Shown: positions 2,461 to 2,506 of the stretch, one piece after another | How the letters are laid out: every line of letters starts with the position of its first letter | Position numbering within the stretch: the first letter of the stretch is position 1 | Source: a virus | Taxonomy: Duplodnaviria; Heunggongvirae; Uroviricota; Caudoviricetes | IMG/VR virus record: IMGVR_UViG_3300029248_000131 | Reading direction: 5' to 3' (one strand) | DNA length: 6,650 nucleotides | The notes under the pieces: generated by a model | What the model was told of the DNA's origin: nothing | Seen by the model: the letters and a program-made list of their open reading frames with translations, nothing else | Database searches by the model: none | Position numbers and translations under genes: made by a program

Positions 2461-2506
2461 ATTCGTAATGCGAAGGTCGTAGGTTCGACTCCTATTATCG
2501 GCACCA
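2461..2506 (+). tRNA. 5'-truncated tRNA-Thr(CGU) 3' fragment (anticodon loop to CCA); attachment-site copy, not a functional tRNA
   Basis: Anticodon loop TTCGTAA (2462-2468; U33, anticodon CGT, A37), 3' anticodon stem TGCGA, 5-nt variable loop AGGTC, T arm GTAGG-TTCGACT-CCTAT, acceptor 3' strand TATCGGC, discriminator A, CCA (2504-2506). The matching 5' strands (GCCGATA acceptor, TCGCA anticodon stem) are absent upstream, so only the 3' part is present. It agrees with my recollection of the enterobacterial thrW 3' half. Confidence 0.65.

What the first reader, a model, noticed from the sequence alone, without database searches (positions are those of the whole stretch)
2461..2506. Truncated tRNA-Thr 3' fragment directly upstream of int: attR-type junction or attP, implying a tandem or composite element
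Only the 3' 46 nt of a tRNA-Thr(CGU) are present; the 5' acceptor and anticodon-stem partner strands are missing. A simple island at a tRNA gene shows an intact tRNA next to int. A fragment followed by int is expected either where a second element inserted into the tRNA copy regenerated by an earlier one (tandem array: left element ends at 2506, right element starts with int), or in the attP region of an excised or circular element. Either way, the acyltransferase-side genes (1-2460) and the int module (2673 onward) probably have different histories. The crossover point maps near the anticodon loop.
Basis: partly seen in the sequence, partly recalled or inferred. Interest (0 to 1): 0.6.

Follow-up and report, generated by a model that had tools for sequence, protein, structure and literature searches.

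The report
Prophage–satellite junction at tRNA-Thr gene
The 46-base tRNA-Thr fragment is the published attachment-site core left at the right end of a Shigella-SfIV/P22-type prophage, and here it sits directly against a phage-satellite island that uses the same tRNA gene; this stacked arrangement is ordinary and occurs in about 3% of complete E. coli genomes.

Summary
Window 2461-2506 is an exact copy of the last 46 nt of E. coli thrW, tRNA-Thr(CGU). No complete tRNA is present.

The 46 nt equal, base for base, the published att core of phages SfI/SfII/SfV/SfX/P22. The 125-165 bp to their left (2296/2336-2460) are the arm of that attP, 96-98% identical to Sf phage genomes.

The sequence to the right (2507 onward) is the attL arm and integrase of a phage-inducible chromosomal island (PICI). 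Its integrase is 96% identical to that of the characterised EcCIMP1. The PICI's own short core (TCCTATTATC…, 2490-2506) is nested inside the 46-bp core.

E. coli E41 shows the whole array: proA, intact thrW, SfIV-type int, a ~41.5-kb prophage, acyltransferase, the 46-nt fragment, PICI int.

The window's exact integrase protein also occurs directly beside an intact thrW, with homology breaking exactly at 2461.

Among 5,426 complete E. coli genomes, 148 carry this composite junction. Another 698 have the PICI next to an intact thrW, and about 10 have the reverse order.

The order of insertion cannot be resolved. This is known biology and of low interest.

The parts
1..471 (-). N-terminal 157 codons of an acyltransferase-3 family O-antigen-acetylase-like gene, cut by the window start. 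It is lysogenic-conversion cargo at the right end of the prophage.
   Evidence: Pfam Acyl_transf_3 at E = 1.5e-13. PHROG O-acetyltransferase at 1.4e-30. The full 339-aa gene is present in E41 and L011. GC is 28-30%.
661..872 (+). S24-peptidase pseudogene fragment; coordinates transferred from the E41 annotation.
   Evidence: E41 annotation at L001 20661-20872, marked frameshifted and partial.
1516..2088 (-). 190-aa ORF of unknown function; prophage cargo.
   Evidence: ORF list. No Pfam hit. phrog_4350, unknown function, at 3.4e-14. Present in E41 and L010-L013.
2296..2460 (.). Non-core arm of the prophage attR, which is the gtr/conversion-gene side arm of the Sf/P22-type attP. It contains TGGGAC motifs at 2336 and 2401 and a hairpin at 2360-2381.
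   Evidence: Positions 2336-2508 are 96-98% identical to attP regions of SfIV, SfII, SfV, SfI and SfX, and 84% to P22/ST64T/L. Many E. coli prophage junctions match from 2296-2300. Alignment A1. Motifs and hairpin. Assignment of the motifs as Int arm sites is inference.
2461..2506 (+). The 46-bp att core, equal to the 3' 46 nt of thrW (positions 31-76). It is the displaced tRNA fragment at the prophage attR.
   Evidence: 46/46 identity to thrW. Identical to the published 46-base SfI/SfII/SfV/SfX/P22 core (PMC3636060; PMC3851460). Invariant in all seven att sequences of A1.
2468..2490 (+). Published P22 attP site, ATGCGAAGGTCGTAGGTTCGACT, inside the core.
   Evidence: Sequence quoted in PMC8022706 from Lindsey et al. 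1992 and read in the window.
2490..2506 (+). Nested core of the PICI att site: TCCTATTATC plus GGCACCA.
   Evidence: EcCIMP1 direct repeats are TCCTATTATC (PMC11773190). PICI attR copies TCCTATTATCG-CACCA occur in L001, L003, MP1 and L017.
2507..2672 (+). PICI attL arm and int upstream region. It carries four copies of TTGGGGGTAY (2598-2607 and 2663-2672 inverted; 2620-2629 and 2632-2641 direct).
   Evidence: Repeats. The same tandem motif lies about 60-70 bp upstream of the PICI attR core in L001, L003, MP1 and L017. This arm also follows an intact thrW in L008 and CI5. Function as arm-type Int sites is inference.
2673..3887 (+). PICI tyrosine integrase (P4-type: arm-binding, central and catalytic domains).
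   Evidence: Pfam Arm-DNA-bind_3, Phage_int_M and Phage_integrase. 96% identical to EcCIMP1 Int. Not detectably related to the prophage Int beyond the fold (E = 0.014).
3931..3991 (+). int-alpA RNA motif (RF02996), carrying an 8-nt deletion in this window.
   Evidence: 33.8 bits here against a gathering score of 35.8. 49.8 bits in sister contig L012. The deletion is located at 3956.
4008..4763 (+). 251-aa PICI ORF of unknown function.
   Evidence: ORF list. No significant Pfam or PHROG hit. Conserved in L008-L014.
4878..5075 (+). AlpA-family regulator/excisionase (65 aa as called on sister contigs).
   Evidence: Pfam Phage_AlpA at 2.5e-19. PHROG 'excisionase and transcriptional regulator'. Gene calls.
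5153..5953 (+). AntA/AntB-type antirepressor of the PICI.
   Evidence: Pfam AntA at 2.8e-23. PHROG anti-repressor Ant at 5.5e-41.

Best explanation
The window spans the internal junction of a two-element tandem array at the E. coli thrW gene. On the left (1-2506) is the right end (attR) of a lambdoid prophage that uses an SfIV/SfV/P22-type integrase. That integrase recombines a 46-bp core shared by the phage attP and the 3' part of thrW. Integration rebuilds an intact thrW at the int end of the prophage and displaces the old 46-nt 3' piece to the far end, beside the phage's conversion-gene arm. On the right (from about 2490) is the left end (attL) of an EcCIMP1-like phage-inducible chromosomal island. 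Its unrelated P4-type integrase uses a shorter core, the last ~17 nt of thrW, which lies inside the 46-nt piece. The fragment is therefore both the prophage's attR core and the satellite's attL core. The array arose in one of two ways. Either the phage integrated into the intact thrW that already had the PICI behind it, or the PICI integrated into the displaced fragment of a resident prophage. The sequence cannot distinguish these. Shown here: the identities of the core, both arms and both integrases, and the complete array in relatives. Inferred: that both elements keep complete att sites in this order and so could still excise independently, and that the TGGGAC and TTGGGGGTAY repeats are arm-type integrase sites.
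For: The fragment is a 46/46 match to thrW 31-76 and equals the experimentally determined 46-base core of SfI/SfII/SfV/SfX/P22 (PMC3636060; PMC3851460).

Positions 2336-2508 are 96-98% identical to attP of five Sf phages and 84% to P22-like phages. The match stops at the core's 3' end.

The four-way comparison gives a textbook POP'/BOB'/BOP'/POB' set: SfIV attP, E41 attL, window/E41 attR and L008 thrW+PICI.

E41 has proA, intact thrW, int (99% identical to SfIV Int), xis, lambdoid genes, tail genes, acyltransferase, the 190-aa ORF, the 46-nt fragment and the PICI int. It is collinear with window 1-3904 at 95% identity.

The same arm + core + PICI junction follows three different prophage types and occurs in 148 of 5,426 complete genomes.

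The exact window Int protein occurs both behind an intact thrW (L008, L009) and behind the fragment (L010-L013), with the homology break at 2461.

Window Int is 96% identical to the Int of EcCIMP1, a PICI shown to excise from tRNA-Thr between proA and yagU with core TCCTATTATC.

Tandem arrays at tRNA genes are a described consequence of core regeneration (PMC7192596).
Against: The window's own genome is unavailable, because it matches short metagenome contigs. The intact thrW and the prophage's int end are therefore inferred from relatives that are 95% identical on the left side. No excision, attP circle or activity of either integrase was tested. The window holds only the first four PICI genes. 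The primase, PerC and the rest of the PICI gene set are seen only on sister contigs.
Confidence: 0.93

Rival explanations
1. The window is the attP region of one excised or circular element, with the 46 nt as its attP core and int as its own integrase.
For: An attP does carry a tRNA 3' fragment next to int, and Sf/P22 phage genomes contain the same 46 nt.
Against: In those phage genomes the core is followed by the phage int on the opposite strand, with a different arm. Here the two flanks belong to different elements with unrelated integrases. The left flank continues into tail and baseplate genes, and the right flank into PICI genes, on linear chromosomes. The PICI's own attR arm, which would adjoin the core in a PICI attP circle, has a different sequence.
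Confidence: 0.01
2. It is a decayed tRNA pseudogene. On this view a full thrW copy lost its 5' 30 nt by deletion or insertion, unrelated to site-specific recombination.
For: tRNA pseudogenes exist at this locus. ptwF is named in the phage annotations. The PICI attR copies are degenerate, with one G missing.
Against: The breakpoint coincides to the base with the published att core. The fragment is 100% intact over 46 nt. The adjoining 125-165 bp are the phage attP arm.
Confidence: 0.01
3. The junction is a metagenome assembly chimera, joined across the 46-bp repeat shared by a prophage attR and a thrW-PICI locus.
For: The nearest sources are short metagenome contigs, and repeats can cause false joins.
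Against: The identical junction is present in 148 finished chromosomes, including E41 and APEC20/16, and in four independent assemblies.
Confidence: 0.02

Closest known systems
att site of Shigella flexneri serotype-converting phages SfI/SfII/SfIV/SfV/SfX and Salmonella phage P22 at thrW
   Same: The 46-bp core is identical. The arm is 96-98% identical to the Sf phages and 84% to P22. Conversion-type cargo (an acyltransferase in place of gtrABC) lies next to the arm. In the relative E41 the cognate Int is 99% identical to SfIV Int and sits next to the rebuilt thrW.
   Different: The cargo at 1-2335 has no megablast match in the phage collection. The prophage bodies carrying this int/att module differ between strains. 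The 'bacterial' side of the attR is another mobile element rather than the native thrW downstream flank.
EcCIMP1, an E. coli phage-inducible chromosomal island at tRNA-Thr (PMC11773190)
   Same: Same insertion site (thrW, after proA). Int is 96% identical. The module runs int, AlpA-type regulator, AntA antirepressor. Sister contigs add a primase, PerC and ProQ. The core TCCTATTATC is the same.
   Different: DNA identity is only ~92% over int and not detectable beyond it by megablast. A 251-aa ORF lies between int and alpA. The helper phage is unknown. Here the PICI sits behind a prophage, whereas in MP1 it sits in front of a second, degraded island.
Tandem arrays of integrative genetic elements at tRNA genes (Islander/TIGER; PMC7192596)
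   Same: The core is regenerated at both ends of an integrated element, so a second element can enter and produce adjacent elements separated by a target-gene fragment.
   Different: Here the two elements use different integrases with nested cores of different length (46 nt against ~17 nt), rather than the same core.
CP4-6 cryptic prophage of E. coli K-12, flanked by thrW and ptwF
   Same: Same locus and the same logic of an intact thrW plus a displaced pseudo-tRNA fragment. Phage records annotate their attP as 'type CP4-6; similar to thrW and ptwF'.
   Different: The elements are different. The K-12 locus was not examined here; its layout is from my own knowledge.

Membership tests
Sf/P22-type thrW attachment site (prophage attR) | A 46-bp core identical to thrW positions 31-76. 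| tested here: met
   46/46 identity. Identical to the published core string.
Sf/P22-type thrW attachment site (prophage attR) | The flanking arm is homologous to the phage attP arm on the conversion-gene side. | tested here: met
   Positions 2336-2460 are 96-98% identical to the Sf phages and 84% to P22-like phages.
Sf/P22-type thrW attachment site (prophage attR) | The cognate int/xis lie at the other prophage end, next to an intact rebuilt thrW. | tested here: inconclusive
   Met in E41. It cannot be examined for the window's own genome, because its contigs end within the prophage.
Sf/P22-type thrW attachment site (prophage attR) | Int/Xis-dependent excision regenerates attB and attP. | not testable with these tools
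   This requires PCR or read mapping on the source strain.
Gram-negative PICI (EcCIMP1-like) | An integrase at one end next to a specific att site, followed by an AlpA-family regulator. | tested here: met
   Int at 2673-3887 and AlpA at 4878-5075. Core TCCTATTATC at 2490-2499.
Gram-negative PICI (EcCIMP1-like) | A primase/replication module, small size (~10-20 kb), and no phage structural or lysis genes. | tested here: inconclusive
   These lie outside the window. Sister contig L008 (99.6% identical) has D5_N/DUF5906 primase, ProQ and PerC, and no structural genes within the 11 kb seen. The right end was not reached on that contig.
Gram-negative PICI (EcCIMP1-like) | Helper-phage-dependent induction, excision and packaging. 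| not testable with these tools
   Shown experimentally only for EcCIMP1 with phage Kapi1.
Tandem IGE array at a tRNA gene | An intact target gene, element 1, a target fragment, element 2, then a terminal fragment. | tested here: met
   Seen in relatives. E41 has thrW at L004 20411-20486, the 46-nt fragment at L001 22461-22506, and the PICI attR core at L001 35168.
int-alpA RNA (RF02996) | A covariance-model score above the gathering threshold. | tested here: not met
   33.8 bits against a threshold of 35.8 in the window, because of an 8-nt deletion. Undeleted sister contig L012 scores 49.8 bits.

The most novel reading that the evidence does not exclude
The two integrases use nested cores (46 nt and ~17 nt) in one tRNA gene, so the order of stacking may have functional consequences. 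In the order seen here (thrW-phage-46 nt-PICI), both elements keep complete att sites and stay independently mobile. In the reverse order (thrW-PICI-16 nt-phage), the phage's attL core is cut away from its arm, and the prophage is trapped until the PICI leaves. This could contribute to the roughly 15:1 excess of the first order (148 against about 10 genomes). It would also place satellites directly beside potential helper prophages, which could favour co-induction or co-transfer.
Probability: 0.2. Interest if true: 0.35.

Novelty: already known. Interest (0 to 1): 0.12.

Why it matters
The main value is for annotation. The fragment marks a precise element boundary, so the prophage and the satellite can be delimited and should not be merged into one 'island'. 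It is a clean natural example of two unrelated tyrosine recombinases sharing one tRNA gene through nested cores. About one in six thrW-resident PICIs of this type in complete E. coli genomes sits behind an Sf/P22-type prophage. No new mechanism is implied.

Tried and rejected
I looked for the window's own replicon and did not find it. No complete E. coli genome covers >= 80% of the window. The exact-protein look-up found near-identical but short metagenome contigs of at most 22 kb. The far end of the prophage could therefore not be reached in the same lineage.

I tried to read Williams 2002 (PMC100330) for sublocation classes of tRNA integration, but the paper is not held.

I considered inferring the order of insertion from sequence. 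This is not possible, because the 46 nt are identical in all att sites.

I considered whether the missing G in the PICI attR cores maps the PICI crossover. It is suggestive only.

The weak RmaA hit at 1200-1234 (E = 0.87) is a simple terminator-like hairpin and was dismissed as chance.

The protein database search, structure prediction and the metagenome-contig scan were not needed and were not used.

Full report
**1. The observation**

Window 2461-2506 reads ATTCGTAATGCGAAGGTCGTAGGTTCGACTCCTATTATCGGCACCA. It matches positions 31-76 of E. coli thrW, tRNA-Thr(CGU), at 46 of 46 bases (E = 1e-22). Nothing else in the window matches the tRNA over more than 9 nt. ARAGORN finds no tRNA in the window, and Rfam reports no tRNA hit at E <= 1. 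The 30 nt to the left do not resemble the tRNA 5' half. A 404-aa tyrosine integrase follows on the same strand at 2673-3887.

**2. What the 46 nt are**

The string is, base for base, the att core determined experimentally for Shigella phage SfI. That paper reports it as identical in SfII, SfV, SfX and P22 (PMC3636060). The SfIV paper also describes a 46-bp att site at both prophage ends, with integration into thrW and conversion genes next to int-attP (PMC3851460). The P22 attP site quoted from Lindsey et al. 1992, ATGCGAAGGTCGTAGGTTCGACT, lies at window 2468-2490 (PMC8022706).

**3. The left flank**

- Window 2336-2508 is 96-98% identical to the attP regions of SfIV, SfII, SfV, SfI and SfX, and 84% identical to P22, ST64T and L. 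Every match stops at the 3' end of the core.
- In those phage genomes the order is conversion genes (gtrABC, minus strand), arm, 46-nt core, then int and xis on the minus strand.
- Many E. coli prophage junctions share the arm from about 2296.
- Left of the arm the window holds prophage cargo: the start of an acyltransferase-3/O-acetylase-like gene (1-471, minus strand), an S24-peptidase fragment, a 57-aa ORF and a 190-aa ORF of unknown function.

**4. The right flank**

- The integrase has P4-type architecture.
- It is 96% identical to the integrase of EcCIMP1. EcCIMP1 is a phage-inducible chromosomal island (PICI). It was shown experimentally to excise from tRNA-Thr between proA and yagU, and it is flanked by TCCTATTATC repeats (PMC11773190).
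- That decamer is at window 2490-2499, inside the 46-nt fragment.
- Downstream are an int-alpA RNA motif, a 251-aa ORF, an AlpA-family regulator and an AntA antirepressor.
- Sister contigs continue into a D5-type primase, ProQ and PerC.
- PICI right ends in four genomes carry the core as TCCTATTATCG-CACCA. About 60-70 bp before it lies a tandem GGGGGTAY-TTTT-GGGGGTAT motif. The same motif occurs four times between the core and int in the window.

**5. The array in full**

E. coli E41 is collinear with window 1-3904 at 95% identity. Its locus runs as follows:

1. proB and proA.
2. Intact thrW.
3. int (99% identical to SfIV Int) and xis.
4. Lambdoid early genes, then tail and baseplate genes.
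5. The acyltransferase and the 190-aa ORF.
6. The 46-nt fragment.
7. PICI int, and further on a P4-family primase.

The prophage is about 41.5 kb.

Alignment A1 places four sequences side by side: SfIV attP, E41 attL, the window/E41 junction, and a thrW+PICI locus. They form the classical POP', BOP', POB', BOB' set, with only the 46 nt shared by all. The prophage Int and the PICI Int are unrelated beyond the fold.

**6. The same PICI with and without the prophage**

The exact 404-aa Int protein is encoded on two kinds of contig. On L008 and L009 it follows proA and an intact thrW. On four metagenome contigs, L010-L013, it follows Mu-like baseplate genes, the acyltransferase and the fragment. 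DNA identity to the window is 99.4-99.9% in both sets. In the first set homology begins exactly at 2461. The two halves of the window therefore have separate histories.

**7. Frequency**

All counts are out of 5,426 complete E. coli genomes.

| Arrangement | Genomes | Query used |
|---|---|---|
| Composite junction as in the window | 148 | 216 nt centred on the core, >= 80% coverage |
| PICI arm next to an intact thrW | 698 | Equivalent 216-nt query |
| Reverse order: thrW, PICI, 16-nt core, phage int | 7 and 3 | Two chimeric queries |

The reverse order was verified in strain CP131_Sichuan, where the prophage is truncated by IS1.

The prophages behind the window-type junction are of at least three kinds:

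- E41 type.
- A lambda-like siphovirus in 2024CK-00474.
- An SfV-like type with a Mu-like tail in APEC20/16 and in L010/L011.

The int/att module is thus a shared cassette, and the cargo next to the arm is variable.

**8. Mechanism and what is inferred**

The identities above are shown. The rest of this section is inference.

- The array arose either by phage integration into the intact thrW in front of a resident PICI, or by PICI integration into the fragment displaced by a resident prophage.
- The published P22 site (2468-2490) lies upstream of the PICI core. A PICI entering the intact thrW of a lysogen would therefore give the reverse order and separate the phage's attL core from its arm.
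- In the order seen here both elements keep complete att sites.
- The sequence cannot tell which event came first, because the core is identical everywhere.
- Position 2461 is the edge of identity, not a mapped crossover.

**9. Rivals**

- An attP of a single circular element is excluded by the mismatched arms and by the chromosomal context.
- Random decay of a tRNA gene is excluded by the base-exact coincidence with the published core and by the arm homology.
- An assembly chimera is excluded by the presence of the junction in finished genomes.

**10. Comparison, novelty and verdict**

The core, the phage att module, the PICI family, its use of thrW, and tandem arrays at tRNA genes are all described. 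MP1 itself has EcCIMP1 followed by a short core and the truncated int of a second island, whose arm equals window 2507 onward.

This window is another instance of known biology. Interest is low. The only mildly new angle is the asymmetry that nested cores could impose on array order, which I rate as unproven.

The remaining limit is that the window's own genome was not recovered.

Noticed in passing
window 3931-3991 (deletion point at 3956): The int-alpA RNA motif downstream of int lacks 8 nt (CGTACACC or an equivalent offset) that are present in all seven sister contigs compared. The deletion removes one side of the second internal hairpin. The Rfam score drops from 49.8 bits (L012) to 33.8, below the gathering score of 35.8.
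   Followed up: partly
L001 35168, L003 34772, L015 (MP1, reverse strand), L017 20110: The PICI right-end core always reads TCCTATTATCG-CACCA, one G short of thrW, whatever lies to its right. This suggests that the PICI attP core is imperfect and that the crossover lies 3' of that G, rather than within TCCTATTATC as proposed for EcCIMP1.
   Followed up: partly
L017 (E. coli CP131_Sichuan) 7888-29872; hits H116-H122, H128-H130: Reverse-order arrays exist in about 10 complete genomes: thrW, PICI, 16-nt core, Sf-type int and prophage. In the one inspected, the prophage is truncated by IS1.
   Followed up: partly
window 1-2335; L003 15770-19626; L016 21797-27039; L007 836-3424: The stretch between the tail-fibre genes and the attP arm of thrW prophages is a variable cargo slot. 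It holds an acyltransferase plus a 190-aa ORF here, FRG-domain and other proteins in 2024CK-00474, a HEPN protein, a tRNA-Pro and an SOS peptidase in APEC20/16, and gtrABC in the Sf phages.
   Followed up: partly
L015 (E. coli MP1) 9210-9718: The 'adjacent island' described next to EcCIMP1 starts with a short core and a truncated arm-binding integrase fragment that is 91% identical to window 2490-3011. MP1 therefore carries a PICI followed by a PICI-remnant array.
   Followed up: partly
L005 (DVIU01000229.1): A 3.8-kb contig with the same phage-arm/core/PICI junction (92.6% identical) is binned in a MAG named Candidatus Scatousia excrementigallinarum. This is probably Enterobacteriaceae contamination of the bin.
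   Followed up: no
window 1516-2088 (minus strand): A 190-aa ORF is conserved at this prophage end. It has no Pfam domain and matches only PHROG 4350, which has no known function.
   Followed up: partly
window 2360-2381 (minus strand): A 9-bp-stem hairpin lies in the phage arm, on the strand that the phage int would read into in the attP configuration. Phage L and SfII annotate a terminator at the equivalent place. It may be an int terminator or a sib-like element that integration separates from int.
   Followed up: no
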